Virus record (IMG/VR): IMGVR_UViG_3300047553_000733
Coordinates: 1 to 64,000 of that record
Length of the DNA stretch: 64,000 nt
Origin: a virus
Strand: one strand, 5' to 3'
Both the position numbers and the translations under genes were made by a program. Shown one piece after another: positions 9,903 to 55,051 of this stretch. Each line of letters opens with the position of its first letter. The stretch's first letter is position 1. The notes below the pieces were generated by a model that saw only the letters and a program-made list of their open reading frames with translations, did no database searches and was not told the origin of the DNA.

Positions 9903-10146
9903 TGACCCTGAACCGCAGTAGTTGCAAGAAACAACTCAAATTGCTTTAAAATTCTGCATCGAAGCCAAGGCCAGCAAGCTGCGGCGGGACAGCTAGAATG
10001 AATGTAGCGTAATTCCCATTGCTGTGGGGTGCTACCGACCCTACCTAAGGGTAGGGTCACTCAAGCTAATCAATAGTGGTTGGCTTGATTGACCCTAAAC
10101 CGCGGTGCCCTATGGGGCCGCACTAGTTTGCCTAAAAGGAAACGCA
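9903..10146 (+). promoter_or_regulatory. structured 5' leader of hsp20 (possible thermometer/ncRNA)
   Basis: Series of hairpins; last (GTTT-GCCT-AAA-AGGA-AAC) covers the RBS; two motif copies. Confidence 0.45.
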
Positions 10147-10560
10147 ATGACAAAATTTGGATTACAAGAGTTAAATCGCAATCTTATTGGATTTGACAGA
10201 CTATTTCAGCAAGCAGAAGCTAAACTACAAAACATTACAAGCTATCCACCACATAACGTGATTAAACTGGACGAGCATGGTGACAAGTATGTTGTAGAAT
10301 TTGCAGTAGCTGGATTTCAAAAACAAGATGTACAACTAGAAGTAGTTGATCAAACACTGGTAGTGCGCGGACAACGCGAACAAGAGTCGTTTGGTACTTA
10401 TGTATATCATGGCTTAGCAAAGCGCAGCTTTGTAAAGCAAATCGCACTTAGTGAATATGTAGAAGTTACTGGTGCAAAACTAGAACACGGTATTCTTGCG
10501 GTTCACCTAGAACGCAAAGTCCCAGAGGCTATGAAGCCCAAACAGATTGAGATTAGTTAA
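10147..10560 (+). CDS. small heat shock protein (Hsp20/IbpA-like)
   Basis: IGFDRLF, YPPHNV, AVAGF, HGLAKRSF, GAKLEHGIL. Confidence 0.95.
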   Translation: MTKFGLQELNRNLIGFDRLFQQAEAKLQNITSYPPHNVIKLDEHGDKYVVEFAVAGFQKQDVQLEVVDQTLVVRGQREQESFGTYVYHGLAKRSFVKQIALSEYVEVTGAKLEHGILAVHLERKVPEAMKPKQIEIS

Positions 10561-10596
10561 CTAACCTTAGGGCGGCTACGACCGCCCTTTTTAATC

Positions 10597-10974
10597 ATGC
10601 CTAAATTAGACGAACAATTAACAGAACAGTTAGAACTTAACATTGTGGTCGGTGAACACCGTCCACAGGGCAGTGCCATGAAATTTGATATGGACAAGCT
10701 GCCGCTGCACTTGCTGAGCACAGAAGCACTTAATCAAACAGCGGCTGTGCTGAAGTTCGGAGCAGACAAGTATGCAGAACACAACTGGCGAAAGGGCTTT
10801 GTTTGGAGCCGTCCCATGAGTGCCGCAATGAGACATATTACAGCATTTAATGCTGGTGAAGATGTCGACCCAGAATCAGGACTGTCACACCTAGCACACG
10901 CTATGTGTTGTATTATGTTCCTGTTAGAATTCCAAAAAACTCACCCTGAGTTAGACGATCGTTATAAGCCGTAA
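10597..10974 (+). CDS. dATP/dGTP diphosphohydrolase-domain protein (DUF5664-like)
   Basis: KFDMDK, VLKFGADKY..HNWRKG, AAMRH, DPESGLSHLAHA. Confidence 0.85.
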   Translation: MPKLDEQLTEQLELNIVVGEHRPQGSAMKFDMDKLPLHLLSTEALNQTAAVLKFGADKYAEHNWRKGFVWSRPMSAAMRHITAFNAGEDVDPESGLSHLAHAMCCIMFLLEFQKTHPELDDRYKP

Positions 10975-11189
10975 TGTACAAACGTTTAGTAAAGCATTTA
11001 GACAGAACTCGTAAATCCCTGTGGGAAGTATGCCGCGAGTTAGGTATAGACTACGACGAAGTAGACATATACACACTAGAAAAACAAATAACGCAGTGCA
11101 CACACTGTGATATCTGGACAAAGCAACCTGTTTTGGATCTAGACGGCAATCCCATTTGCAAAGTATGCTTAGGTATAAGTGGATTATAA
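10974..11189 (+). CDS. small zinc-finger protein
   Basis: CTHC...CKVC. Confidence 0.7.
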   Translation: MYKRLVKHLDRTRKSLWEVCRELGIDYDEVDIYTLEKQITQCTHCDIWTKQPVLDLDGNPICKVCLGISGL

Positions 11190-11190
11190 C

Positions 11191-11619
11191 ATGGCTAAAA
11201 TTACAGATACAATAAACTATACCTGGATGACACAGCCACCCAGACACAGCATACCACAAGAAGGCAACTTTAGACGCTGGCTTTTTGTGGATGAAACTGG
11301 TCGCATAGGCAGTGCCACAGCAGCTACAATGGCTGCTAGTATTGGTATAAATGCTCGTGTTGTTGGCACAGACTTTAATAACTGCCTTCAACCAATTTCA
11401 CCTATACTGATAAACTGGGCAGAAAAAATAATCTTTTTAAATCAAACTAGTTACGATCAAGCTGTTGCGCTACTAAACACATCTACGTATAGTAATGTTT
11501 TAAACACATTACAATCAAAGTCACAAGTATTAAATATTCCCAGCACGTTTGTGTATATGGAATATGGCTTACAAGAAACTATTAAACAGCAGATGCCAGA
11601 CTTAACTGTGATTAATTAA
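11191..11619 (+). CDS. LMW protein-tyrosine-phosphatase-like protein, degenerate active site
   Basis: Paralogue of 11684 but FVDETGRIGS replaces C-x5-R. Confidence 0.7.
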   Translation: MAKITDTINYTWMTQPPRHSIPQEGNFRRWLFVDETGRIGSATAATMAASIGINARVVGTDFNNCLQPISPILINWAEKIIFLNQTSYDQAVALLNTSTYSNVLNTLQSKSQVLNIPSTFVYMEYGLQETIKQQMPDLTVIN

Positions 11620-11683
11620 AAAAATATTGTCTTGAAATGTTGAGTTGATCAGTGTATAATATTATCTTTAGTCGGAGAATGTT

Positions 11684-12115
11684 ATGAACATGGCAACACC
11701 ATTCTTGAAAGGCACAAAAAATGCACAAATATTTAGCACAACAGCACCCTATGATAACTTTTATCAAGGTTTGGATCATCGTTGGCTTTTTGTGTGCAGT
11801 GCTGGCCTCCTGCGAAGCCCAACCGGTGCCAGGGTTGCTACCATAAAAGGTATAAATGCTCGTAGTTGCGGCAGTGCTGTGGGCTGGGCGCTGATTCCTA
11901 TTTCGGCAAACTTGATTAACTGGGCACAAAAGATTATTTTTGTGTGCAGTGATAACTACGACCAAGCACTAGACCTATTCAAAGATGTTGGTGACCTACA
12001 CTATCAGTTAGTGACTAAAAGTGTTGTACTGGACATTCCTGATATGTTTGAGTATATGGAACCACAACTAGTAGAGATATTCAATCAGCAATTGTTCAAT
12101 GCTGGCTCAAACTGA
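11684..12115 (+). CDS. LMW protein-tyrosine-phosphatase-like protein
   Basis: LFVCSAGLLRSPT (C-x5-RS), INWAQKIIFV, LDIPD. Confidence 0.85.
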   Translation: MNMATPFLKGTKNAQIFSTTAPYDNFYQGLDHRWLFVCSAGLLRSPTGARVATIKGINARSCGSAVGWALIPISANLINWAQKIIFVCSDNYDQALDLFKDVGDLHYQLVTKSVVLDIPDMFEYMEPQLVEIFNQQLFNAGSN

Positions 12116-12188
12116 CTGTAGCTCAGAAGGATAGAGCAATAACCTTCTAAGTTATTGGTCGGGGGTTCGAATCCCTCCAGTCAGGCCA
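12112..12188 (+). tRNA. tRNA-Arg(UCU)
   Basis: Cloverleaf, loop CTTCTAA, encoded CCA. Confidence 0.95.
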
Positions 12189-12254
12189 GAAATTATTTTG
12201 TTGATTTACTCATCTTTATATTATATAATATAGTCTGTTCTGTGGAGAAATAAC

Positions 12255-12452
12255 ATGGCTGCTTATACAAAAGAATTTTTAGTTGCTGCTTACATGAGCA
12301 GATTTATCAAGTGTAGTTTGATTACTATTGAACAGCTTGAAAGTCTTGAACTGCAAGCCAACACATTCTATGATAAAGTTGGCCGTGATAAGTTTCGCAC
12401 ATACGCTAGCTTAGATGCCGAAGCTATCAGACTATACAAGGCTGAGCTATGA
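12255..12452 (+). CDS. hypothetical protein
   Basis: GGAG RBS, upstream promoter. Confidence 0.65.
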   Translation: MAAYTKEFLVAAYMSRFIKCSLITIEQLESLELQANTFYDKVGRDKFRTYASLDAEAIRLYKAEL

Positions 12453-12637
12453 TAGTTGAAAGTGTTGGACGCCTGTGGCGTTGGGTAAGAGATAGGCAAG
12501 TTGTAGAAGTACAACGACAAATGCTTGATCCTAAAACTCACAAAACCTGGTACGAATACCATACGCTAATCTATAATGCTCAAGCCAAAGTAGTAGAATC
12601 TGAAGCAGTCGGCACAAAGTTTGATAAAACAGTTTAA
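12449..12637 (+). CDS. hypothetical protein
   Basis: ATGA overlap with previous ORF. Confidence 0.6.
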   Translation: MIVESVGRLWRWVRDRQVVEVQRQMLDPKTHKTWYEYHTLIYNAQAKVVESEAVGTKFDKTV

Positions 12638-12653
12638 ATTAAGTCCCGTCCCA

Positions 12654-12822
12654 CTTGTTGCCACAGTCCCTAGTGGTTAGCAGTGCACCGCGACGCTATA
12701 TGACCGCCTGGCACATATAGGTAAAACATACGAGTGATGGTGGACTGCGTATGCGGATATTTTAGACCTGCGGGCCGTCGCCCAATAGTAGCAAGACAAT
12801 ATAGCACAGTTTAGGGACTGTG
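12654..12822 (+). ncRNA. candidate pseudoknotted structured RNA
   Basis: CTTGTTGC/GTAGCAAG and GCGACG/CGTCGC stems; CACAGTCCCTA can pair with distal TAGGGACTGTG. Confidence 0.5.
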
Positions 12823-12823
12823 C

Positions 12824-12903
12824 CTATATTTTAGCACAGCACTTCACTGATAAGGAAGACTGGTCGGCTGTATTCAACTGGCTAGTGCTGTGCTAAAATA
12901 TAG
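12824..12903 (+). ncRNA. stem-closed small RNA with Ile(GAU) anticodon-like loop
   Basis: Perfect 20-bp inverted repeat enclosing CTTCA-CTGATAA-GGAAG. Confidence 0.55.
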
Positions 12904-12904
12904 T

Positions 12905-12980
12905 GTCCCGTTCATCTAGTGGCCAAGGATAGTGCCCTTTCACGGCATTCACGCGAGTTCGAATCTCGCACGGGACGCCA
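12905..12980 (+). tRNA. tRNA-Glu(UUC)
   Basis: Cloverleaf, loop CTTTCAC, CCA. Confidence 0.95.
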
Positions 12981-12989
12981 CAATTTCAA

Positions 12990-13073
12990 GCCCCGGTGGT
13001 GTAATGGTAGCCACGCTGGTCTTAGAAGCCAGTGCCGAAAGGCGTGCGAGTTCGAGTCTCGCCTGGGGCACCA
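12990..13073 (+). tRNA. tRNA-Leu(UAG)
   Basis: Type II cloverleaf, loop CTTAGAA, CCA. Confidence 0.95.
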
Positions 13074-13248
13074 GTTAATTTTTATGGGTCAATGCAAAAG
13101 ACTTCCACACCCTAACTGCTAAGGGAGAAAATTGCCTTATTACGCTAGCTTGGAATGCTAGGTAGCTTGGTGTAGCGTATAATGCACTTGTAAGGTAGGC
13201 CGCCCACGATTGCCTTTAAAATGACAGCAGTACCCATAAAAATTAACT
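13073..13248 (+). ncRNA. stem-closed structured RNA, about 176 nt
   Basis: Perfect 17-bp terminal inverted repeat, internal helices, potential pseudoknot ACTGCT/AGCAGT. Confidence 0.55.
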
Positions 13249-13274
13249 TGACACACAATACTATTTAGTATATA

Positions 13275-13499
13275 ATGACAGTACAAGAACTAATAAACAA
13301 ACTACAACAATTTGACCCTACCCTGCCCGTCGTGCTTAGTGGCTACGAGGGCGGGGTATACTTGCCTGAGCACGTCAACATTGTGCTTATGGCAGAAAAT
13401 GTCAATGACGCCTGGTATTACGGACCACACGAAATTGTGTGGCCTGATATCAATGAATTCACAGACTACAAAAAATTTCACGGAGTTTATATAAAATGA
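13275..13499 (+). CDS. hypothetical protein
   Basis: MTVQELINKLQQFDP start. Confidence 0.7.
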   Translation: MTVQELINKLQQFDPTLPVVLSGYEGGVYLPEHVNIVLMAENVNDAWYYGPHEIVWPDINEFTDYKKFHGVYIK

Positions 13500-13813
13500 A
13501 TACCTATACCCCAGATCGTTGGGTTGTGTTGCGTATTACTTACGGCAGTGAAACTATTGATAAAGTGCTAGCTGGTTGGTACGGCGGATTCGCTGGTAGC
13601 GATCACTGGAAACTTAACAGTGGTATCCTTCACACCGAGGAGTTTGATAACCGCTTTGAGTTTTACGGCTACAGTGGTAGTGTTTATGTGTGTTATAAAG
13701 CAGCACACGGATTTACTAGCTTAACTCGTAGTATGCTAGCTAGTTGGCAAAACAAAGAAAATATAGATATTAAAATACTAGAAGAAAAATACAATGTTCG
13801 ATCAACAAATTAA
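13496..13813 (+). CDS. phage hypothetical protein
   Basis: YTPDRWVV, WYGGFAGSDHWKLNSGI, GYSGSVYVC. Confidence 0.8.
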   Translation: MNTYTPDRWVVLRITYGSETIDKVLAGWYGGFAGSDHWKLNSGILHTEEFDNRFEFYGYSGSVYVCYKAAHGFTSLTRSMLASWQNKENIDIKILEEKYNVRSTN

Positions 13814-14792
13814 ACGGATCGGCTTTGCGTGTAAAATTCAAAGTGAACACGACAAAGCAGACCCTAAACTGAATACAAAAACAACTACACTAACTTGGTT
13901 AAATAACCAAACACGCGACAAAGCTGTTGAGAAACTGTGGATGGTGATGGAGCACAATGCTCAAGCACTAAAGCAACAACTCAACTGGGTAGGGAAACAG
14001 CCCAAGGGTCAGCGTATGTTTCGACTTAGCAGTGACCTGTGTCCTGCATATACTCACGACGACTGGACATGGTGGTACTTTGAACCAGATGTTCAGCGAT
14101 ACATGGAAAAACACTACGGCGAGATTGGTGAACTCATCCGTACACACGATATCAAGGCCAGCTTTCACCCAGGCCAATTTTGCGTACTAGCATCGGAGCA
14201 TGATGGAATTGTTGATAACAGCGTGGCTGAGTTTGAGTATCATTGCGACCTCATCCGCTACATGGGTTTTGGTAAGTCATTTCAAGACTTTAAGTGCAAT
14301 GTTCACATCGGCGGTAAGCGCGGACCTGACGGAATTAAAGCTGCTCTAAAAAAGCTGAGTCGCGAAGCACGAAACACTATCACCATTGAAAATGCTGAGT
14401 ACACATGGGGTCTTGACGCTAGCCTAGAGCTTGCACAAGACTGTGCACTGGTGCTTGACATACATCACCACTGGATTAATACCGGAGAATATATAAGTGC
14501 AGACAATCCTAAACTTCAACCCATTTGGGATAGCTGGCGCGGAGTTAGGCCTACCATTCACTACTCTGTCAGCCGTGAAGATTGCTTGGTCGACCACGAC
14601 CCAACAACAAAACCCGATCTGGCAGAACTCAAGCGTATGGGCTTTACCAGTGCAAAACTTCGCGCACACAGCGACTACTACTGGAACTCAGAAGTAAATA
14701 AATGGGCCTTGACTTTCTTAGACAAAGCTGATATAATGTGTGAATCAAAACAAAAGAACTTGGCAAGCAGCGAGCTTGCCAAGCTTTTGTAA
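13794..14792 (+). CDS. uvsE: UV damage endonuclease (UvsE/UVDE)
   Basis: RIGFACK, FRLSSD, HPGQF, TIEN, LVLDIHHH, AHSDY, DIMCESKQK. Confidence 0.9.
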   Translation: MFDQQIKRIGFACKIQSEHDKADPKLNTKTTTLTWLNNQTRDKAVEKLWMVMEHNAQALKQQLNWVGKQPKGQRMFRLSSDLCPAYTHDDWTWWYFEPDVQRYMEKHYGEIGELIRTHDIKASFHPGQFCVLASEHDGIVDNSVAEFEYHCDLIRYMGFGKSFQDFKCNVHIGGKRGPDGIKAALKKLSREARNTITIENAEYTWGLDASLELAQDCALVLDIHHHWINTGEYISADNPKLQPIWDSWRGVRPTIHYSVSREDCLVDHDPTTKPDLAELKRMGFTSAKLRAHSDYYWNSEVNKWALTFLDKADIMCESKQKNLASSELAKLL

Positions 14793-14800
14793 TTAAATTT

Positions 14801-14879
14801 CGGGGTGTAGGCTAGCCTGGTTTAAGTCGCTGCGTTTGGGACGCAGAGATCGTGAGTTCGAATCCCACCACCCCGACCA
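14801..14879 (+). tRNA. tRNA-Pro(UGG)
   Basis: Cloverleaf, loop TTTGGGA, CCA. Confidence 0.95.
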
Positions 14880-15060
14880 TTTAGTTTGTGTGTTGCTAGA
14901 ACACCGATTCGGTTCGGGGCTTTGCAATCCTGAGACCACAGACACCTAGGAAGGTTTGTGGGTATGGTTTGACCCTAAGCATAGGCCAGTGTCGCGAACT
15001 GGGTAAACTTAGGGCACTGGCTTAGCGGCTAGGGTAGTAAAGAGCGCACAAACTAAATGG
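14877..15060 (+). ncRNA. stem-closed multibranch RNA between tRNA-Pro and tRNA-Ala
   Basis: CCATTTAGTTTGTG/CACAAACTAAATGG terminal stem; at least 4 internal hairpins. Confidence 0.55.
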
Positions 15061-15130
15061 GGGATTAGTGCTAATGGGAACACGCGTGCTTTGCAAGCAT
15101 GAGTTGGGAGTTCGATCCTCCCATCCTCCA
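15059..15130 (+). tRNA. tRNA-Ala(UGC)
   Basis: Loop TTTGCAA, G3:U70 pair; CCA not encoded exactly. Confidence 0.9.
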
Positions 15131-15147
15131 CCCACTAGGAGCACAAT

Positions 15148-15366
15148 ATGTGGCGTAATTCATTGGGTCAGTATACATTGAATGCTGTATTTGTACCTGC
15201 TTGGTATAATACAAAACGAGAAAAATTTAAACCAATAGAATATAAAAGGATTGATTGTGAAATTACAGAAACCGAAACAACGAAACCCATTTGTGGCACT
15301 GGCCATGAAGCGGAAAGCGGGATCACACCGAAAGACAAACAAACAACTACGCAAGCAACTGAATAA
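15148..15366 (+). CDS. hypothetical protein
   Basis: AGGAG RBS. Confidence 0.45.
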   Translation: MWRNSLGQYTLNAVFVPAWYNTKREKFKPIEYKRIDCEITETETTKPICGTGHEAESGITPKDKQTTTQATE

Positions 15367-15412
15367 GCTTACACAGGAGTCTTCTATAAGTGTATAATGT
15401 ACATTTATAGAA

Positions 15413-15513
15413 GGCCCCGTAGCTTAATTGGTTAAAGAACCGAGCTTATACCTCGGCATAGCGCTGTCTAGATAAGGCAGAGTGTGGGGGTTCGAGTCCC
15501 TCCGGGGCTACCA
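15413..15513 (+). tRNA. atypical tRNA with UAU anticodon (Ile) and 29-nt variable arm
   Basis: Acceptor GGCCCCG/CGGGGCT, CCGAG-CTTATAC-CTCGG, T arm GGGGG-TTCGAGT-CCCTC, ACCA end. Confidence 0.8.
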
Positions 15514-15518
15514 TAATA

Positions 15519-15610
15519 GGAAGTGTGGCCGAGTGGCCGAAGGCAGCGGCTTGCTAAGCCGTCAGTCGCAGAAATGCGGCTCGTGGGTTCGAATCCCACC
15601 GCTTCCACCA
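15519..15610 (+). tRNA. tRNA-Ser(GCU)
   Basis: Type II cloverleaf, loop TTGCTAA, CCA. Confidence 0.95.
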
Positions 15611-15626
15611 ATAACAAGGATTGAGT

Positions 15627-15938
15627 ATGAATACTTATGTACAAACAATCGAGCGGTATAGTGAAATGCTGCGTCGAATTGAAGAAAAGGCTGCTAGTGT
15701 AAAACGGGGTGATAGCGTTAGCTGGAATAGCAGCGGTGGTACAGCTCGTGGCAAGGTTACCAAAGTAATCACTAATGGTGAAGAACAGGTACCTGGCAGT
15801 AGTTTTAAGATTACTGGCACACCAGACGATCCAGGTGCACTTATCAGAGTATACCAAAAAGACGGTGATGGCTACAAGCCAACCGATACTATTGTAGGAC
15901 ATAAAGTTAAAACACTAACCAAAATTGAAGCACTATAA
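15627..15938 (+). CDS. DUF2945-like (Tudor/SH3-like) protein
   Basis: KRGDSVSWNSSGGTARGKV...GTPDDPGALI...VGHK. Confidence 0.7.
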   Translation: MNTYVQTIERYSEMLRRIEEKAASVKRGDSVSWNSSGGTARGKVTKVITNGEEQVPGSSFKITGTPDDPGALIRVYQKDGDGYKPTDTIVGHKVKTLTKIEAL

Positions 15939-16055
15939 TGCCTTGCAAGAAACCAATGATGTAATCCCCGATTATCTAACGCTCTACGGGGGCAGTACCG
16001 GAAAGTTAAACTGCTAAAATAAACTTTCCACAACACACAACACATAGGAAATATT

Positions 16056-16310
16056 ATGTTCGGACCACATTTTTTTATTGATACCTTTCAAACTTCAAAA
16101 AAGGTAATCACAGACGCAGTTTTCAAAGATGCTACTTTGAACAAGGCTGCTCATAACTACATTGACGCGCAAACATCTTTTGCCAAGATGATGGCTACCA
16201 ATGCTATTGATCTTGCTAAATATTCTGTAGATTCAGTATCTAAGGTACTATTTCCGCAGACGGAGCAAGCTTCACGAGCTCCATACAAAATAGAAAAAGA
16301 AGCCAACTAA
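16056..16310 (+). CDS. hypothetical protein (phasin-like helical)
   Basis: FIDTFQTSKK...YIDAQTSFAK; family call tentative. Confidence 0.6.
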   Translation: MFGPHFFIDTFQTSKKVITDAVFKDATLNKAAHNYIDAQTSFAKMMATNAIDLAKYSVDSVSKVLFPQTEQASRAPYKIEKEAN

Positions 16311-16334
16311 TACACACAACACATAGGAAATATT

Positions 16335-16562
16335 ATGACACCTTTTGAAATTCGTGCCCAAATGCTTGAAATGGCACAAGACTACCTACAGAAACAGTTT
16401 GAACTCAACAGTGAGTTTGCTAAGCGTACATTTGACGAACTAGTCAAAAGTGGCGAAAAAGTACAAAGCGACTACAATCAATATATGCCAAAAATGTATG
16501 GCTTTGATGAAGTTGTTAGTAAGGCAAAGGAACTATATGGTTTTGTTAAAGATGTTAAGTGA
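16335..16562 (+). CDS. phage hypothetical protein
   Basis: MTPFEIRAQMLEMA...KAKELYGFV. Confidence 0.75.
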   Translation: MTPFEIRAQMLEMAQDYLQKQFELNSEFAKRTFDELVKSGEKVQSDYNQYMPKMYGFDEVVSKAKELYGFVKDVK

Positions 16563-16706
16563 ACTATGGCTTAACTTACAAAGCATGTTAAAACCTTACT
16601 CTCTAGAAGATTTTATCAATGATTATAAGCCGCGAGACCATGCTGACCTAGAGCGTGCAGAACGCCTGTGGCAACAGCATAAAGAACAAGGTTTTTGGCA
16701 TTAAAT

Positions 16707-16785
16707 AGCAGAGTAGGGGAGTCTAGCCGTCCCCGCCAGTCTCATAAGCTGGAGATCACAGGTGCGAATCCTGTCTCTGCAACCA
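16707..16785 (+). tRNA. tRNA-Met(CAU), initiator-like
   Basis: Loop CTCATAA, 1:72 mismatch, CCA. Confidence 0.85.
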
Positions 16786-16789
16786 ATTG

Positions 16790-16900
16790 CAGGCTTGTAA
16801 CCATTGTTGTGTAAAGACAACATCCTGCGTCCGCTGAAGCGAAAACAAGATGGGCTGCTCTCACGGGGTCGATTAGTACCTGACATAAAAAACTATACCA
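16790..16900 (+). ncRNA. candidate ncRNA with preQ1-I-like pseudoknot
   Basis: CATC..CGC-TGAA-GCG..GATG hairpin, then GTCGA-TTAGTAC-CTGAC-ATAAAAAACTA. Confidence 0.4.
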
Positions 16901-16952
16901 CTACCCGGGACCGTAGTCAGTCGGTCAGAGCGAGAGAGTGTGGGCTCTAAGC

Positions 16953-16998
16953 TAATGCTTAGATTTAGTAGTCTAGTGGCTATTAAATCTAAGCATTA
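16953..16998. repeat. 19-bp inverted repeat hairpin
   Basis: TAATGCTTAGATTTAGTAG...CTATTAAATCTAAGCATTA. Confidence 0.7.
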
Positions 16999-17024
16999 TT
17001 ATTATTTGCAACAAAGGAATAAAC

Positions 17025-17246
17025 ATGAGTGATGGCGGTAAGGGCAGTAAGCCCAGACCTTTTAGTGTAAGTCAACAGGAGTGGTCAACTCGCTGGGATG
17101 CTATATTTGGCAGGGATGTACCAAATGATTTTCAAGACATACTTTCAACTGAAGACTGTATGCTTGAAGCGTTTAAAGAGCGTGAAGAACGAGAGTCACG
17201 AAATAACGAAGAAACGCAACAAGCACACGAACAGGCTAAAAATTAG
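17025..17246 (+). CDS. phage hypothetical protein
   Basis: MSDGGKGSKPRPFSV...WDAIFG; AAGGA RBS. Confidence 0.75.
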   Translation: MSDGGKGSKPRPFSVSQQEWSTRWDAIFGRDVPNDFQDILSTEDCMLEAFKEREERESRNNEETQQAHEQAKN

Positions 17247-17937
17247 TCTACTAGCCACCTTAATGGCATTTATGCCTAGCAGCTTTGCCGATAATCATAG
17301 TATTAAGGCTAAAAGCTGGTTAGTAACTGATAGTACGGGTAGTGTACAAACTGGCAGTAACTACGAAGAACAGCGCAGTATTGCTAGCATAACTAAACTG
17401 ATGACAGTTATGGCAGTGCTAGATCATGGGCAAAACTTAGCTGAAAAGCTGGGCAAGTATACCCGTGAGCAACTAATAAAACTTAGTTTAATTAAGTCAG
17501 ATAATTGGGCTACAGATGTGCTGTGTAACAGCATGCCTGGTGGCCGTAGTGCTTGTGTAAAGTACATGAATGAAAAAGCTGGTAAACTTGGTATGCAGAA
17601 TACAAAGTTTATAGAGCCTACGGGCTTAAGCCCAATGAATATTAGTACAGCAACCGACTTAATTAAACTAGTAAAAGAAGCTAGTCACTACCCACAAATT
17701 GTGGAGGCTAGTGGTACAGCAAAGTATCCTCTAGTAGAAAATAAAAAGACTACAACTGTATATAACACAAATAAGTTAGTTGGCAGTGGCCGTGAGCTAC
17801 TAGTTAGTAAAACTGGTACTACAAACGCTGCTGGACAGTGTGTAGTGATGATGGATGCTGATGGCAGAGTATATATTCTATTAGGTATGCAGCCTGGTAG
17901 AAGATTATTAGAATCAAAAGAAATAGTTACAATGTAG
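17098..17937 (+). CDS. D-Ala-D-Ala carboxypeptidase/endopeptidase (peptidase S11, PBP7-like); start uncertain
   Basis: SITK (SxxK), SDN (SxN), KTG motifs. Confidence 0.9.
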   Translation: MLYLAGMYQMIFKTYFQLKTVCLKRLKSVKNESHEITKKRNKHTNRLKISLLATLMAFMPSSFADNHSIKAKSWLVTDSTGSVQTGSNYEEQRSIASITKLMTVMAVLDHGQNLAEKLGKYTREQLIKLSLIKSDNWATDVLCNSMPGGRSACVKYMNEKAGKLGMQNTKFIEPTGLSPMNISTATDLIKLVKEASHYPQIVEASGTAKYPLVENKKTTTVYNTNKLVGSGRELLVSKTGTTNAAGQCVVMMDADGRVYILLGMQPGRRLLESKEIVTM

Positions 17938-17938
17938 T

Positions 17939-18012
17939 GTCTCGCTAGTGTAATGGCAGCATACCAGTCTCCAAAACTGTTGGTCGGGGTTCGAGTCCCT
18001 GGCGGGATGCCA
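17939..18012 (+). tRNA. tRNA-Trp(CCA)
   Basis: Loop CTCCAAA, CCA end. Confidence 0.9.
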
Positions 18013-18077
18013 AAATTTTAATTTGAATTATTTCCTTAACAGTGCTACAATATATTTTTAATCAGAGGAAATACTAC

Positions 18078-18293
18078 ATGAATCTATTAGCACAAGTTTC
18101 TAGTCCTATGTTTTTACTGCCTGCGTATGGTCGCAGCTATAAAACTAAACAAGAAGCATTGAGTGCATGGAATAGCGGCAAGGATTTTCAAATCTATAGA
18201 GGCCCATACTGTAGTAAACGCGATATTGATCAGCTACATGATTTGGCTGATAGAGTATATATTCAGTATGATAACGGAATAGTAGAAGTATAG
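18078..18293 (+). CDS. hypothetical protein
   Basis: PAYGRSYKT..WNSGKDF; GAGG RBS. Confidence 0.65.
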   Translation: MNLLAQVSSPMFLLPAYGRSYKTKQEALSAWNSGKDFQIYRGPYCSKRDIDQLHDLADRVYIQYDNGIVEV

Positions 18294-18385
18294 GGTGTGT
18301 TGATGCTATGGTGTGTGCATCCCAAGACTGTAAATCTTGTCCCGCTGGGTAAACACTGTTGGTTCGACTCCAACCACACCCACCA
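18293..18385 (+). tRNA. tRNA-Tyr(GUA)
   Basis: CAAGA-CTGTAAA-TCTTG, variable arm, CCA. Confidence 0.9.
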
Positions 18386-18389
18386 ATAC

Positions 18390-18472
18390 GCCCCTGTGGT
18401 GGAATGGTAGACACAGGAGACTTAAAATCTCCCGCTTTTGGCGTGCCAGTTCGACTCTGGCCAGGGGTACCA
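18390..18472 (+). tRNA. tRNA-Leu(UAA)
   Basis: Loop CTTAAAA, CCA. Confidence 0.95.
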
Positions 18473-18474
18473 CT

Positions 18475-18657
18475 ATGAAACAAACTATGAATGAAATTTT
18501 ACTAGCATTACTAGGCTCACAAGAATTAGTAGAGCGCTGGTGGGCTACACCAAATAAAGCATTTGATGGTGAAATACCAGATGATTTGCTACATACACCT
18601 CGTAAAATTGAGGTGTATAAATATATAATGGCTCAAGTAAGTGGTCATTACAGTTAA
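18475..18657 (+). CDS. hypothetical protein (MbcA/Xre antitoxin C-terminal-like)
   Basis: LLGSQELVERWWATPNKAFDGEIPDDL. Confidence 0.5.
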   Translation: MKQTMNEILLALLGSQELVERWWATPNKAFDGEIPDDLLHTPRKIEVYKYIMAQVSGHYS

Positions 18658-18659
18658 TA

Positions 18660-18734
18660 GACTCTGAAGTGTTCATGGACGCACGTATGCCTGTCACGCA
18701 TAAAGAAGGGGATCGTTACCCCTCAGGGTCGCCA
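18660..18734 (+). tRNA. tRNA-Asp(GUC)
   Basis: Loop CTGTCAC, atypical T loop ATCGTTA, CCA. Confidence 0.9.
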
Positions 18735-18798
18735 TACTAAAGCATATTAGTAGTTATAAACTATAGCCTGCACTAGCGGGGCTATAGTTTATAGTTAT

Positions 18799-18873
18799 TC
18801 CACTGTAGCTCAGAGGTAGAGCAGTTGACTGTTAATCAATTGGTCGTTGGTTCGATCCCAGCCAGTGGAGCCA
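18799..18873 (+). tRNA. tRNA-Asn(GUU)
   Basis: Loop CTGTTAA, CCA. Confidence 0.95.
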
Positions 18874-19020
18874 TTTGGGAGTATTTATGTTAGTATATCA
18901 TGGCCGCAGTAGGGAAATGTGCGAGTGGGTTATTGCCCAGTATGAGCACTGCCCACTAAGCAAAAATAATTTGACTACACAGCTGTGGATACAAGCCTGT
19001 AAAGATTTTCTACAATCACT

Positions 19021-19096
19021 TGGGGATTCGCCAAGCAGGTAAGGCATCGGATTTTGATTCCGACATTCGGTGGTTCGAGTCCATCATCCCCAGCCA
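19021..19096 (+). tRNA. tRNA-Gln(UUG)
   Basis: Loop TTTTGAT, CCA. Confidence 0.95.
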
Positions 19097-19103
19097 AAAC
19101 ATC

Positions 19104-19574
19104 ATGAAAAAATTTAATATTGAACAAGTTCGCGAATTTATATATAATCAATCTTTAGAAACCAAAGTTTATCTTGGCGCAGACAGTGAGCGCGTAAATG
19201 TTGGTGGCAAGTGGTGTGTAGACTATACCATGGCTGTAGTAGTGCATATAGACGGACGACACGGCTGTAAGGTGTTTGGTTATGTAGAGCGCGAACCGGA
19301 CTGGGATCAAAAAAAGAATAAGCCTGCTCTTAGACTAATGAACGAAGTCTACAAAGTAGCACATCTATTCAGCGAATTGAGTGAGGTATTACAAGACAGA
19401 CACGTTGAAGTACATCTAGACTTAAATCCGCAAGAACACTTTGCCAGTAGCCAGGTTGTACAGCAAGCAGTAGGATACATTCGCGGAGTGTGCAATATTG
19501 ATCCACAAGTAAAGCCACAAGCATTTGCAGCAACTTACGCAGCCGATAGACTTAAATTTGTATTGAGTAACTAA
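19104..19574 (+). CDS. RNase H-like YkuK-family protein
   Basis: VYLGADSE, RLMNEV, EVHLDLN, KPQAFAATYAAD. Confidence 0.8.
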   Translation: MKKFNIEQVREFIYNQSLETKVYLGADSERVNVGGKWCVDYTMAVVVHIDGRHGCKVFGYVEREPDWDQKKNKPALRLMNEVYKVAHLFSELSEVLQDRHVEVHLDLNPQEHFASSQVVQQAVGYIRGVCNIDPQVKPQAFAATYAADRLKFVLSN

Positions 19575-19575
19575 A

Positions 19576-19794
19576 ATGACACTATTTAAACAAAAAGACC
19601 GCTTTGACTTGGAACAAGAGATTATGGAGTGCTGGAATGTAACCAAAGACATTCAGAACTTCTATTATGCTCAAGAAAACCTGGACGAAGATCAGCGTGC
19701 AAACTATATTCTTGGACTAGAGCAGATTTATGAAGTAAAGTTTGAAAAGCTGTGGGCTACTTTTGAACAGTGCATTCGTAATAAACAAATCTAA
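19576..19794 (+). CDS. phage hypothetical protein
   Basis: DRFDLEQEIMECW...KFEKLWATFE. Confidence 0.75.
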   Translation: MTLFKQKDRFDLEQEIMECWNVTKDIQNFYYAQENLDEDQRANYILGLEQIYEVKFEKLWATFEQCIRNKQI

Positions 19795-19870
19795 CTTGGT
19801 GTGACCCGAACGGCTAGGGAGCGGATTGCAAATCCGTTATATGCAGGTTCGAATCCTGTCACCAAGTCCA
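19795..19870 (+). tRNA. tRNA-Cys(GCA)
   Basis: Loop TTGCAAA, U73, CCA. Confidence 0.95.
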
Positions 19871-19871
19871 T

Positions 19872-19946
19872 GCCGGTTTAGCTCAGTGGTAGAGCAACCG
19901 CCTTGTAAGCGGTAGGTCGTCAGTTCGATCCCGACATCCGGCACCA
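19872..19946 (+). tRNA. tRNA-Thr(UGU)
   Basis: Loop CTTGTAA, CCA. Confidence 0.95.
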
Positions 19947-20056
19947 TAACAAAACACACTACTTGCCACTTAATCAATATATGCGGAGCTGTTCCGGACT
20001 GTAGCCTTCCGCGGGTAACTGGGAGCACCCAGCATAGGTAGTGTGTTTTGTTATGG
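19944..20056 (+). ncRNA. stem-closed small RNA between tRNA-Thr and tRNA-Ser
   Basis: Perfect 19-bp terminal inverted repeat; internal GCGGA/TCCGC and CTGGG/CCCAG hairpins. Confidence 0.55.
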
Positions 20057-20143
20057 AGGGTTAACTAGGCTGGGCCTGGCACTGTTTTGAACACAGATGG
20101 ACTTGGAAACAGGTTGGAGTTCGATTCTACCATCCCTCCTCCA
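20055..20143 (+). tRNA. atypical tRNA-Ser(UGA)
   Basis: Loop TTTGAAC, variable arm, 6-bp D stem, bulged T stem, CCA. Confidence 0.75.
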
Positions 20144-20396
20144 TTAAAAAGGTTTTTATGTTAATAAATATTCTACTAATAATTCTTGCAGTATTTTGTG
20201 TAAGTTATTGGGCGTACTATGTAGCCGTGTATGATTGGGATAATTTTGAACAAGATCAGCAACGAGCAAAAGAAGACTTTTTTTAATGGAGCGCAAATGC
20301 AGTATATAATGATGTTTCCTCCAAAGCAGTTTATACATTGGTATATTGATGAGCATGGCTTTTTAGATTTAGAATTAATTGATTTATCAGATTAAC

Positions 20397-20473
20397 GCGT
20401 GCGTCGTATAGCCTGGTTATTATCGCTGGTTGCCAACCAGTGGACAGGGGTTCGAATCCCCTCGCCCGCACCA
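20397..20473 (+). tRNA. tRNA-Gly(GCC)
   Basis: Loop TTGCCAA, CCA. Confidence 0.9.
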
Positions 20474-20474
20474 A

Positions 20475-20548
20475 GCGTGGTTAGTTTAATGGCAAAACGG
20501 TAGGCTTCCAACCTTCAGTCAAGAGTTCGATTCTCTTACCCCGCACCA
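20475..20548 (+). tRNA. tRNA-Gly(UCC)
   Basis: Loop CTTCCAA, CCA. Confidence 0.9.
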
Positions 20549-20567
20549 CACAACACAAAGGAAAACA

Positions 20568-21020
20568 ATGTTGAGTAATACACTTAAAAACTTGGAGAGT
20601 GCGCTCGCTGGCGAGAGCATGGCTCACATCAAGTACCGATACTTTGCAAAGATTGCTCGTGAATCAGGCTACGACGATATTGCCGATCACTTTGAGCATA
20701 CAGCAAATCAGGAAATTAAACACGCCTGGGGCCATCTAGAACTACTAGTAGGCTACCCCAGTGTGCGGGAATGTTTGGAACTAGCAATCAAGGGCGAGAC
20801 TTATGAGTATACAGAAATGTATCCAAAGTTTCAAGAAGAAGCTGAACTAGAAGGTGATGAAAATGCCTTGCTAGAAGCCAGATTGCAAGCTAAAGAATCT
20901 AAGGAGCACGCAGAAGCGTTTCAAGAACTACTATATAAAGCTGAAGCACGATTTGCTGCACTGGCTAAAGTAGAGGAACGGCATGCAAATGCTTACAAGA
21001 AAAAGCTGGAGGCACTATGA
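20568..21020 (+). CDS. rubrerythrin (ferritin-like diiron protein)
   Basis: NLESALAGESMA, ExxH motifs, GETYEYTEMYP. Confidence 0.9.
   Translation: MLSNTLKNLESALAGESMAHIKYRYFAKIARESGYDDIADHFEHTANQEIKHAWGHLELLVGYPSVRECLELAIKGETYEYTEMYPKFQEEAELEGDENALLEARLQAKESKEHAEAFQELLYKAEARFAALAKVEERHANAYKKKLEAL

Positions 21021-21445: not shown

Positions 21446-21455
<10 letters not shown>
21306..21455 (+). CDS. DUF1289-like small Cys protein
   Basis: MQTPCIKICKL...CIACKRTIEEIQRW. Confidence 0.75.
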
Positions 21456-21523
<68 letters not shown>

Positions 21524-32593: not shown

Positions 32594-33089
32594 ACTAGGT
32601 GAAAAAAGACCGACTATAGATGCTGGAGTAACTTTCTTTATGGCCGAATATAGTGATAAAGATAGTGCAAAATACTCCAGTAACTATAGAATAGTTGATG
32701 ATAAAAATATAGATAAGCCAACCCTAGGGCTGCGAAGATTGATGCTAGCACAAAAAGTTTCGTTATTTCCTATCGGTTCGGCTATTTATTTTTTAGCAGA
32801 CTTAATAAAATTAGCAAAAAGTACAACCTGGTTTGTGGACAACACCGGTCAGGTTTTTCAACATAAAAAATCCACACGCGCCAAGCTGACAACAAAGAAG
32901 ATAAAACAAGTTTTACCTGCAAGTACCTTAGGGTGTGTAATAGAAGTTGATGGTCTGTCTCAGAGATTCAAGTCTATGCAGCCACCTCAAGCATATCAAA
33001 AATATGCCGGACTATTAGAAATATCTGGTGGTCACATATTATATGGATTCTATGAGACGCAGATAAAAGACACTTGGAGACTAGTATAA
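32559..33089 (+). CDS. T5-like hypothetical protein
   Basis: Between pol and D10 as in T5; FPVFRL. Confidence 0.7.
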   Translation: MLLQEISFPVFRLGEKRPTIDAGVTFFMAEYSDKDSAKYSSNYRIVDDKNIDKPTLGLRRLMLAQKVSLFPIGSAIYFLADLIKLAKSTTWFVDNTGQVFQHKKSTRAKLTTKKIKQVLPASTLGCVIEVDGLSQRFKSMQPPQAYQKYAGLLEISGGHILYGFYETQIKDTWRLV

Positions 33090-54735: not shown

Positions 54736-55051
54736 ATTCTGAACCGATTACAGGCTTGTTGCGATAGTCACTGCCTACAATCATTATGTCTGGTCTATAT
54801 TGTTTTACTAGTTGTGTTAGTTCTACATCACTGTCGAACACAACCACTTCATCAACCCAGCGTAAACTTTCTAATAGTTTTTTTCTGTTTTGTTGTGGAT
54901 TTAGTGGTCTGTCCGCACCTTTTAACTTTGCAACCCTGTCATCAGAGTCGATACCTACAAGCAAAAAAGTACCTAAACTTGCCGCGTGCTGCAACAAGTT
55001 CAGGTGACTTGGATGTAAAACGTCAAAAGTGCCGTTTACAAATATTTTCAT
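54644..55051 (-). CDS. heptose-1-phosphate nucleotidyltransferase (HldE/RfaE domain II)
   Basis: NGTFDVLHPSH, KGADRP, VDEVVVF, GSDY, STTQI. Confidence 0.9.
   Translation of the reverse strand: MKIFVNGTFDVLHPSHLNLLQHAASLGTFLLVGIDSDDRVAKLKGADRPLNPQQNRKKLLESLRWVDEVVVFDSDVELTQLVKQYRPDIMIVGSDYRNKPVIGSEYAKRLEFYSRTTTDSTTQILEHFINRRRLR

What the first reader, a model, noticed from the sequence alone, without database searches (positions are those of the whole stretch)
15413..15513. tRNA with UAU anticodon and a second, GAU-loop arm
Seen: a complete 101-nt cloverleaf with anticodon UAU and a 29-nt variable region folding as CTGTC-TAGATAA-GGCAG, a 5-bp stem with a 7-nt loop centred on GAU followed by AA. 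Established: most bacteria read AUA with lysidine-modified CAU tRNA, tRNA-Ile(UAU) is rare, IleRS reads the anticodon, and long variable arms normally mark Leu/Ser/Tyr/Sec. Inference: the extra arm may supply an Ile identity element so a UAU tRNA is charged without TilS, or the tRNA is charged by LeuRS/SerRS and misreads AUA, or it is a decoy. Caveat: the second loop has A, not U, at the position equivalent to 33.
Basis: partly seen in the sequence, partly recalled or inferred. Interest (0 to 1): 0.75.

Follow-up and report, generated by a model that had tools for sequence, protein, structure and literature searches.

The report
Phage AUA tRNA with GAU arm
This phage gene is a real isoleucine tRNA for the codon AUA that carries a second, strongly conserved hairpin copying the anticodon arm of the ordinary isoleucine tRNA (GAU); the design is widespread in phages and mobile elements, and the hairpin may be how the host charging enzyme accepts it, though that is untested.

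Summary
Window 15413-15513(+) is a 101-nt tRNA (Rfam tRNA, 53.8 bits) with anticodon UAU, A73 and an encoded CCA. A 5-bp hairpin with a 7-nt loop centred on GAU lies between the anticodon arm and the T arm.

It is not a class II variable arm. A 7-nt linker precedes the hairpin, and a complete 5-nt variable loop follows it.

It belongs to a large family:
- 237 distinct members were fetched, 162 from viral contigs and 75 from bacterial genomes.
- The loop is Y-AGAU-N-R. AGAU is invariant also in the samples whose search pattern did not require it.
- The 4-bp stem covaries, with 49 different stems.
- The hairpin occurs almost only on UAU tRNAs.
- It also carries C29-G41, a pair typical of tRNA-Ile(GAU).
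- In this phage's lineage it equals a relative's tRNA-Ile(GAU) anticodon arm except U33 to A.

ATA is heavily used in the phage and behaves as isoleucine.

Function is inferred: the hairpin is most likely an IleRS handle that compensates for poor recognition of U34 (about 0.4).

Acidobacterial relatives are probably the 'allo-tRNA-UAU' group of Mukai et al. 2017. No paper I found notes the GAU loop. This scan had already noted the same design on other DNA, in at least 81 genomes.

The parts
15370..15398 (+). Promoter-like site (TACACA, 17 nt, TATAAT), 14 nt upstream of the tRNA
   Evidence: 10 of 12 matches, but 0.9 such sites are expected in shuffles. Only a possibility.
15413..15419 (+). Acceptor stem, 5' strand (pairs with 15503-15509; G1-U72, C4-G69)
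   Evidence: The acceptor stem covaries across the family.
15422..15438 (+). D arm: stem GCUU/AAGA with G10.A25 mismatch and U12-A23; 9-nt loop with G18G19
15440..15456 (+). Decoding anticodon arm: 5-bp stem, loop CUUAUAC, anticodon UAU at 15447-15449, with U33 and A37
   Evidence: A canonical loop, so this arm is fit for ribosomal decoding.
15457..15463 (+). 5' linker CAUAGCG. It resembles a second D-stem 3' strand plus position 26 and could pair with 15422-15424.
   Evidence: it aligns with AGAGCA of a relative's tRNA-Ile(GAU); linkers of 7-8 nt are complementary to the D 5' strand across subfamilies; the alternative fold is isoenergetic.
15464..15480 (+). Extra hairpin: 5-bp stem CUGUC/GGCAG and 7-nt loop UAGAUAA (AGAU at 15470-15473). 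It mimics the tRNA-Ile(GAU) anticodon arm with A at the '33' position.
   Evidence: AGAU invariant, stem covaries; identical to the tRNA-Ile(GAU) arm of L007 except U33A.
15481..15485 (+). Canonical 5-nt variable loop AGUGU (positions 44-48). Its last base, U, partners A15.
   Evidence: the spacer is 5 nt in 150 of 237 members and 6 nt in 71. Its last base covaries with position 15 (A15/U, G15/C).
15486..15502 (+). T arm: 5-bp stem, loop UUCGAGU
15503..15513 (+). Acceptor 3' strand (15503-15509), discriminator A73 (15510), encoded CCA (15511-15513)
   Evidence: A73 in 232 of 237 members, CCA encoded in 179 of 237.

Best explanation
SHOWN. The gene encodes a genuine tRNA of a distant T5-like phage. 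It belongs to a large family found in phages, tRNA arrays and conjugative elements.

Family layout: acceptor; D arm; UAU anticodon arm; linker of 2-8 nt; a 4-5 bp hairpin with loop Y-AGAU-N-R; an ordinary 5-6 nt variable loop; T arm; A73.

The UAU arm has all the features of a decoding loop (U33, A37). The hairpin does not: A33 is invariant and position 37 is mostly U.

The hairpin copies the anticodon arm of tRNA-Ile(GAU). It has G34 A35 U36, mostly A38, C.A or U.A at positions 32/38, C31-G39 and the Ile-typical C29-G41.

INFERRED, origin. The 3' part (D 3' strand remnant, GAU arm, variable loop, T arm) derives from a tRNA-Ile(GAU). It was fused or duplicated behind the anticodon arm of a UAU tRNA.

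INFERRED, function. The ribosome reads AUA with the UAU arm. Host IleRS accepts U34 about 360-fold worse than lysidine-34 in E. coli. The GAU hairpin gives IleRS an anticodon-like handle, so the tRNA is charged with isoleucine without TilS. A33 keeps the handle from acting as a second anticodon or as a nuclease or modification substrate.

The phage, at 40% GC with ATA at 18 per 1000 codons, thereby gets a self-sufficient AUA decoder.
For: - Real tRNA: (53.8 bits).
- Family and architecture.
- AGAU is present where the search did not require it: 8 of 8 and 14 of 17 long UAU tRNAs.
- Stem covariation: the three pairs nearest the loop are never unpaired in 134 distinct rows. The score is 0.778 against 0.16 in shuffles and 0.10-0.17 when slid. 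RNAalifold predicts the hairpin on its own.
- Hairpin implies UAU: 137 of 143 phage hits with no constraint on the anticodon. In Pyrinomonadaceae, 26 of 27.
- Ile-arm mimicry: the third pair from the loop is C-G in 205 of 237 members and the closing pair C-G in 202 of 237. C29-G41 occurs in 67% of tRNA-Ile(GAU) and 10% of other tRNAs in the same loci. It occurs in only 32% of the family's own UAU arms.
- This lineage: the window hairpin equals the tRNA-Ile(GAU) arm of relative L007 apart from U33A and the outermost pair. The linker aligns with that tRNA's D 3' strand.
- ATA demand and meaning.
- IleRS weakness for UAU: PMC3575796, Table 1.
- Carriers have tilS, so they presumably have the usual IleRS type.
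Against: - No aminoacylation, expression or structure data exist.
- Position 37 of the hairpin is usually U. Yet t6A37 matters for E. coli IleRS (PMC3575796), and A38 is not universal.
- The invariance of A33 is not predicted by IleRS recognition alone.
- In a canonical L-shape the variable region faces away from class I synthetases (textbook knowledge). The hairpin loop can therefore reach the anticodon-binding domain only by swivelling or by an alternative fold.
- About three quarters of phage UAU tRNAs in my unbiased sample have no extra arm, so UAU tRNAs can work without it in some hosts.
- Mukai et al. found that six acidobacterial UAU species, converted to CUA, gave no serine suppression in E. 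coli. That assay could not detect isoleucine.
Confidence: 0.4

Rival explanations
1. The hairpin is a conserved binding site for another partner: a U34 or anticodon-loop modification enzyme, a ribosome-associated factor that suppresses AUG misreading, or a processing or stability factor. Its likeness to the Ile anticodon arm is inherited from its origin and is not what is recognised.
For: - A33 is invariant and position 37 is free. This fits a motif AGAU read as such better than an anticodon mimic does.
- Unmodified UAU misreads AUG on E. coli ribosomes (PMC3575796), so a second problem exists that the arm might solve.
Against: - No conserved neighbouring gene for a partner was seen in the window's tRNA region.
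- Carriers span very different phages and bacteria, so the partner would have to be universal.
- Enrichment of C29-G41 and C31-G39 points to Ile-arm recognition.
Confidence: 0.27
2. The RNA is not mainly a translational adaptor. It is a decoy or regulator: bait for a nuclease or toxin specific for tRNA-Ile(GAU), an IleRS or T-box titrator, or an RNA tied to toxin-antitoxin or transposable elements, as Mukai et al. proposed for acidobacterial UAU species.
For: - PMC5389517 reports no serine suppression by six converted species, with two of them toxic.
- Bacterial copies lie in mobile contexts.
Against: - All tRNA features are under selection: acceptor and T-arm covariation, the 15-48 pair, A73, CCA.
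- The genes sit inside ordinary tRNA arrays.
- A decoy need not be tied to a canonical UAU decoding loop, yet the tie is near absolute.
- The phage uses ATA heavily.
Confidence: 0.12
3. It is a two-anticodon tRNA that switches between two cloverleaves. It reads AUA with the UAU arm and AUC/AUU with the GAU arm.
For: - In the window's class the linker holds a second D 3' strand.
- The two folds are isoenergetic, -29.7 against -30.0 kcal/mol.
- This phage has no separate tRNA-Ile(GAU).
Against: - The hairpin has A33 invariant and mostly U37, which is poor for decoding.
- About 85% of members have linkers too short for the second D stem.
- Close relatives L005 and L007 keep a separate tRNA-Ile(GAU).
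Confidence: 0.07
4. The long arm makes it a substrate of SerRS, LeuRS or TyrRS, so that AUA is misread.
For: A long extra arm is the hallmark of class II tRNAs. Allo-tRNAs with non-Ser anticodons are serylated in E. coli (PMC5389517).
Against: - It has A73, not G73.
- The arm has a 7-nt 5' linker and a 5-nt 3' spacer. The phage's own tRNA-Ser has one or two nt on each side.
- The loop sequence is invariant, which SerRS does not require.
- ATA positions align with I 75%, V 10%, L 9% and no S, like ATT/ATC.
Confidence: 0.04
5. The hairpin is a neutral relic of a gene fusion and has no function.
For: The origin by fusion or duplication is well supported.
Against: AGAU is invariant while the stem shows 49 variants that all keep pairing. 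Body sequences have diverged widely.
Confidence: 0.03

Closest known systems
TilS-independent bacterial tRNA-Ile(UAU), e.g. Mycoplasma mobile tRNA-Ile2 (Taniguchi et al. 2013, PMC3575796)
   Same: UAU anticodon reading AUA without lysidine; A73; an ordinary 7/5 cloverleaf core.
   Different: - M. mobile solves charging on the enzyme side (IleRS Arg865) and has a normal short variable loop.
- Here the tRNA carries an extra GAU hairpin.
- The bacterial carriers tested here still have tilS.
'allo-tRNA-UAU' group of Acidobacteria (Mukai et al. 2017, PMC5389517; review PMC7609411)
   Same: - UAU anticodon and a five-helix junction.
- Abundant in soil Acidobacteria and linked to mobile or toxin-antitoxin contexts.
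- My acidobacterial hits with a tetraloop D arm carry the same hairpin with the CAGAUUA loop. They are probably this group. This is inferred, because the paper's supplement was not available.
   Different: - The window tRNA has a canonical 7/5 acceptor/T branch, a normal D arm and A73, so it is not an allo-tRNA.
- The papers do not mention the conserved GAU loop.
- The papers judged the group probably non-translational.
Class II tRNAs (Leu, Ser, Tyr, Sec) with long variable arm
   Same: Five helices, with an extra stem-loop between the anticodon arm and the T arm.
   Different: - Class II arms are flanked by one or two nucleotides and have short loops that are not conserved.
- In class II tRNAs the arm replaces most of the variable loop.
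- Here a complete 5-nt variable loop with the 15-48 partner follows the hairpin, and the 7-nt loop is invariant in four positions.
Anticodon-arm mimics bound by synthetases outside tRNA, e.g. the E. coli thrS operator bound by ThrRS (from my own knowledge, not checked here)
   Same: A hairpin that copies a cognate anticodon stem-loop and is recognised by the synthetase's anticodon-binding domain.
   Different: That mimic lies in an mRNA leader and serves feedback control. Here the mimic lies inside a tRNA and would serve charging.

Membership tests
tRNA (Rfam RF00005) | Cloverleaf with 7-bp acceptor stem, D arm, anticodon arm with 7-nt loop, and T arm with the GTTCRA loop | tested here: met
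   53.8 bits against a gathering score of 29, with model positions 1-71 all matched. ARAGORN finds the same span.
AUA-decoding tRNA-Ile with UAU anticodon | Anticodon UAU in a canonical loop (U33, purine 37) | tested here: met
   loop CUUAUAC at 15445-15451.
AUA-decoding tRNA-Ile with UAU anticodon | Isoleucine identity: A73, and in E. coli terms C4-G69 and U12-A23 | tested here: met
   A73, C4-G69 and U12-A23 are present. A73 occurs in 232 of 237 family members. ATA behaves as an Ile codon.
AUA-decoding tRNA-Ile with UAU anticodon | Aminoacylated with isoleucine by IleRS | not testable with these tools
   Needs biochemistry.
AUA-decoding tRNA-Ile with UAU anticodon (M. mobile type) | Class I body with a 4-5 nt variable loop; host lacks TilS and has an adapted IleRS | tested here: not met
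   The variable region is 29 nt. Five bacterial carriers of family members all have tilS above the curated cut-off.
Class II tRNA (Leu/Ser/Tyr) | Variable arm flanked by 1-2 nt on each side, loop not conserved, cognate anticodon (G73 for Ser) | tested here: not met
   The flanks are 7 nt and 5 nt, the loop AGAU is invariant, the anticodon is UAU and the discriminator is A73. Contrast the phage's own tRNA-Ser.
allo-tRNA (Mukai 2017) | 8/4 or 9/3 acceptor/T branch, long D stem with tetraloop, G73 or U73 | tested here: not met
   The window tRNA has a 7/5 branch, a 9-nt D loop with GG, and A73.
UAU tRNA with AGAU hairpin (family defined here) | UAU arm; then a 4-5 bp hairpin with 7-nt loop Y-AGAU-N-R; then 5-6 nt to the T stem; A73 | tested here: met

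The most novel reading that the evidence does not exclude
The tRNA separates synthetase recognition from decoding. IleRS reads a dedicated GAU 'identity arm' while the ribosome reads the UAU arm. In the window's subclass this may work by switching between two near-isoenergetic cloverleaves. Mobile elements could then carry a TilS-independent AUA decoder that works with any standard IleRS.
Probability: 0.3. Interest if true: 0.9.

Novelty: new variant of a known kind. Interest (0 to 1): 0.72.

Why it matters
AUA is the one sense codon that most bacteria can read only after an essential enzyme, TilS, has modified a tRNA. IleRS rejects the obvious alternative, a UAU anticodon.

A tRNA that carries its own copy of the accepted anticodon arm would be a new solution to that problem. 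It would also be the first natural case in which the anticodon seen by the synthetase and the one seen by the ribosome sit on different arms.

The idea is directly testable, because cultured phages carry family members: Vibrio phage Gary and Pectobacterium phage Arno162.

It also matters for annotation. Tools label these genes 'tRNA-???', miss them or call them pseudogenes. It would also reopen the acidobacterial 'allo-tRNA-UAU' group, which was set aside as non-translational.

As a design principle it could be used to build orthogonal or recoded tRNAs.

Tried and rejected
- **Single-sequence MFE fold.** It gives a non-cloverleaf structure with z = -1.8. Uninformative, as usual for tRNAs.
- **Nucleotide searches of cultured phages.** Megablast of 12 kb found nothing near. 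blastn of the tRNA found only distant hits. A mis-set coordinate query found nothing.
- **Replacement for TilS.** I tested whether the bacterial carriers lack tilS. They do not.
- **A partner enzyme nearby.** I looked for a tRNA-related gene in the window's tRNA region. It holds UvdE, a D-Ala-D-Ala carboxypeptidase, an RNase H-like protein, rubrerythrin, HSP20 and others, none obviously relevant.
- **A general rule that the extra arm copies the major isoacceptor's anticodon.** A scan for tRNA-Arg(UCU) with an ACG-loop hairpin gave only three closely related loci. Suggestive, not general.
- **Hairpin stem equal to the co-resident tRNA-Ile(GAU) stem.** All 8 stem bases match in 4 of 84 pairs. 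Given the N-C-N-C bias, that count alone is not above chance. It is persuasive only for the window's own lineage, where both stems are rare types.
- **C4-G69 enrichment.** 46% in the family against 29% in other tRNAs. Too weak to use.
- **Literature.** Five searches found no description of the GAU hairpin. The supplement of PMC5389517 is not held.

Full report
**1. Observation**

Window 15413-15513(+) reads as a 101-nt tRNA. Its parts are listed here.
- A 7-bp acceptor stem (G1-U72, C4-G69).
- A D arm GCUU/AAGA, with a G10.A25 mismatch and a 9-nt loop holding GG.
- An anticodon arm of 5 bp with loop CUUAUAC (UAU at 15447-15449).
- A 29-nt variable region.
- A T arm with loop UUCGAGU, then A73 and an encoded CCA.

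The Rfam tRNA model scores 53.8 bits and places a long insert in the variable region. ARAGORN reports the same span as 'tRNA-??? (tacc)'.

The variable region has three pieces:
- a 7-nt linker (15457-15463);
- a hairpin with a 5-bp stem and 7-nt loop UAGAUAA (15464-15480);
- five nucleotides, AGUGU (15481-15485).

The gene lies in an array of 20 tRNA genes at 12.1-21.5 kb.

The record is a 102-kb virus contig, 96% complete. Its DNA polymerase is 49% identical to those of T5-like Vibrio and E. coli phages of the Demerecviridae.

**2. A large family**

A pattern fixing only the anticodon arm and the T loop found 8 viral loci. All hold a 94-101 nt UAU tRNA with the hairpin. AGAU is invariant although the pattern did not touch it.

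Parsing all loci gave 292 distinct UAU tRNAs:
- 243 have a long variable region;
- 237 of those carry a hairpin around AGAU, 162 viral and 75 bacterial.

Most of the 237 were fetched with patterns that required AGAU or YAGAUNR. Their invariance is therefore partly built in. The independent evidence is the samples without that requirement: 8 of 8, and 14 of 17 in section 4.

Family features:
- The loop is Y-AGAU-N-R. CAGAUUA occurs 146 times, CAGAUAA 28 and UAGAUAA 14.
- The stem has 4 bp in 153 members and 5 bp in 67.
- The 5' linker is 1-12 nt.
- The 3' spacer is 5 nt in 150 members and 6 nt in 71.
- A73 occurs in 232 of 237.
- CCA is encoded in 179 of 237.

**3. The hairpin is selected**

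I aligned 150 diverse members without gaps, anchored on the loop (A2). Results:
- The three pairs nearest the loop are never unpaired in 134 distinct rows. The fourth is paired in 94%.
- 195 cells have changes on both sides, against 64 in shuffles.
- The covariation score is 0.778. It is 0.16 in shuffles and 0.10-0.17 when the partners are slid.

There are 49 different inner stems. RNAalifold on 45 full-length members independently predicts the acceptor stem, the hairpin and the T arm, with many compensatory changes.

**4. Specificity in both directions**

*UAU tRNA to hairpin.* In an unbiased sample of phage UAU tRNAs (any length, no AGAU in the pattern), about 50 had a normal short variable loop and 17 a long one. 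Of the 17, 14 carry the AGAU hairpin. The other three carry UUCG, GAAA or another loop.

*Hairpin to UAU tRNA.* A scan for the commonest loop plus the T arm, with no constraint on the anticodon, gave 143 distinct hits.
- 137 have a UAU arm just upstream.
- The rest are chance matches, for example inside tRNA-Leu arms.

In Pyrinomonadaceae genomes the hairpin-plus-T-arm pattern occurs in 38 of 151 genomes. That is 36 of 149 without the two unpublished genomes G133 and G148, which I left out of the further counts.
- 26 of 27 hairpin-forming hits have UAU.
- One (L479) has GAU in the main arm.

Among 1272 tRNAs in the first 125 loci, long tRNAs that are not Leu, Ser or Tyr are almost all this type.

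**5. It is not a class II arm**

The last base of the 3' spacer covaries with position 15: A15 with U, G15 with C. The middle base is mostly G. The spacer is therefore the ordinary variable loop 44-48.

The insert (linker plus hairpin) sits between positions 43 and 44. The molecule can equally be read as two anticodon-type arms in tandem. The first has the canonical junction to the D arm. The second has the canonical junction to the variable loop.

**6. The hairpin copies the tRNA-Ile(GAU) anticodon arm**

Beyond G34 A35 U36:
- The closing pair is C-G in 202 of 237 members.
- The third pair from the loop is C-G in 205 of 237. The second and fourth pairs vary freely.
- The '32/38' positions are C.A, U.A or U.G, as in anticodon loops.

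In the same loci, C29-G41 occurs in 67% of true tRNA-Ile(GAU) anticodon stems but in 10% of all other tRNAs. It occurs in only 32% of the family's own UAU arms.

For this phage's lineage the match is direct. Relative L007 has the same long tRNA and a separate tRNA-Ile(GAU). That tRNA's arm, GUGUC-UUGAUAA-GGCAU, differs from the window hairpin only at the outermost pair and at U33 to A. MAFFT aligns the whole tRNA-Ile(GAU) to the 3' three quarters of the long tRNA, with the linker CAUAGCG opposite AGAGCA, which is the D 3' strand plus position 26.

In the 7-8 nt linker class the linker is complementary to the D 5' strand across subfamilies: GCUU with AAGC, GCUC with GAGC, GCCG with AGGC. The regular D stem in that class often has a G10.A25 mismatch.

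For the window tRNA the regular cloverleaf scores -29.7 kcal/mol. An alternative cloverleaf, with the D stem closed by the linker and the GAU hairpin in the anticodon-arm position, scores -30.0 kcal/mol.

I infer an origin by fusion or partial duplication with the 3' part of a tRNA-Ile(GAU). Most members (linker 2-5 nt) have since lost the second D strand but kept the hairpin.

**7. Meaning of ATA**

The window is 40% GC. In 16 long ORFs, ATA is 18.1 per 1000 codons, or 29% of Ile codons.

In a helicase (33074-34384) the 27 ATA positions align in 120 homologues with I 75%, V 10%, L 9% and S 0%. ATT/ATC positions give I 80% and V 10%.

One caveat applies: homologues sharing ATA were themselves translated as I. 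Serine is nonetheless excluded. The whole record has no tRNA-Ile(GAU).

**8. Context elsewhere**

Bacterial copies lie in mobile contexts:
- dense tRNA arrays (24-32 tRNAs per 8 kb) in Pyrinomonadaceae;
- next to TrbL/VirB6 and KfrA genes in Stenotrophomonas.

All five carriers tested have tilS.

Cultured phages carry members too:
- Vibrio phage Gary (T5-like) has one at 77510-77602, annotated plainly as tRNA-Ile, right after its tRNA-Ile(GAU).
- Pectobacterium phage Arno162 has an unannotated copy with a bulged T stem.

**9. Mechanism**

Shown: a real tRNA with a decoding-competent UAU arm and a selected, non-decoding copy of the Ile(GAU) arm.

Known from the literature (PMC3575796):
- E. coli IleRS has a 360-fold lower kcat/Km for UAU than for the lysidine anticodon.
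- Unmodified UAU also reads AUG on E. coli ribosomes.

Inferred: the hairpin restores IleRS recognition (confidence about 0.4). Four points weigh against it:
- A33 is invariant, which the model does not predict.
- Position 37 is usually U.
- Class I synthetases face away from the variable region.
- Most phage UAU tRNAs lack the arm.

The rivals are another partner for the AGAU motif, a decoy or regulator, a true two-anticodon tRNA, class II-type mischarging and a neutral relic. They are weighed in their own sections.

**10. Prior knowledge**

Mukai et al. 2017 (PMC5389517) and a 2020 review (PMC7609411) describe 'allo-tRNA-UAU' as follows:
- It has possible five-stem junctions.
- It is inactive in a serine reporter after UAU was changed to CUA.
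- It is probably non-translational.

My acidobacterial hits, with a tetraloop D arm and the same hairpin, are probably that group. The reporter they used could not have detected isoleucine. I found no paper that notes the GAU loop or the phage 7/5 forms.

Earlier notes of this scan describe the same design in at least 81 other genomes and reach the same reading. They are not independent evidence. One later check there questioned the tie to UAU in bacteria, which led me to test it. It held in my sample.

**Verdict**

This is a new variant of a known kind of molecule, of high interest, with its mechanism untested.

Noticed in passing
L098:3310-3402; also L325 and L330: A 93-nt tRNA-Arg(UCU) has an extra 3-bp hairpin whose 7-nt loop AUACGAA matches the anticodon loop of tRNA-Arg(ACG). 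It parallels the Ile case. Only three closely related loci were found. L098 also carries the Ile(UAU)+GAU tRNA.
   Followed up: partly
L156, L184, L198 (UAU tRNAs); L037:8136-8223 (tRNA-Pro UGG, 88 nt): Other phage tRNAs have an extra hairpin in the variable region, but with UUCG or GNRA-type tetraloops instead of AGAU.
   Followed up: no
L479 (a Pyrinomonadaceae genome): One family member has GAU instead of UAU in the main anticodon arm and keeps the AGAU hairpin.
   Followed up: no
bacterial tRNA-array loci such as L383, L353, L339: C instead of U at position 33 is frequent in array tRNAs: Ile(GAU) 24%, Val(UAC) 23%, Ala(UGC) 19%. Most other isoacceptors show about 0-11%. The tRNA-Ile(GAU) of Vibrio phage Gary also has C33.
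   Followed up: partly
window 16707-16785 and 21446-21523: The phage has two CAU tRNAs. By my reading of the sequence printed, the first has an A1 x A72 mismatch and so looks initiator-like. I did not determine whether either is a lysidine-type tRNA-Ile2.
   Followed up: no
window 10105-21020: Genes interspersed in the tRNA array match these Pfam families: HSP20 (10105-10560), UvdE UV endonuclease (13794-14792), Hva1_TUDOR (15621-15938), D-Ala-D-Ala carboxypeptidase (17098-17937), RNase H-like (19020-19574) and rubrerythrin (20568-21020).
   Followed up: partly
window 55048-56829 (-): A Nol-like carbamoyltransferase (PHROG 1601, E = 9e-167) in a T5-like phage.
   Followed up: no
L005:4560-4953: ARAGORN calls a tmRNA-like gene (tag ANDESFALAA) in a close relative of the window phage, overlapping the end of a tRNA-Thr. 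No such call was made in the window.
   Followed up: no
L462:1486-1586 (Pectobacterium phage Arno162, MK290737): This family member is absent from the GenBank annotation and missed by ARAGORN. It has an extra C in the 5' strand of the T stem.
   Followed up: partly
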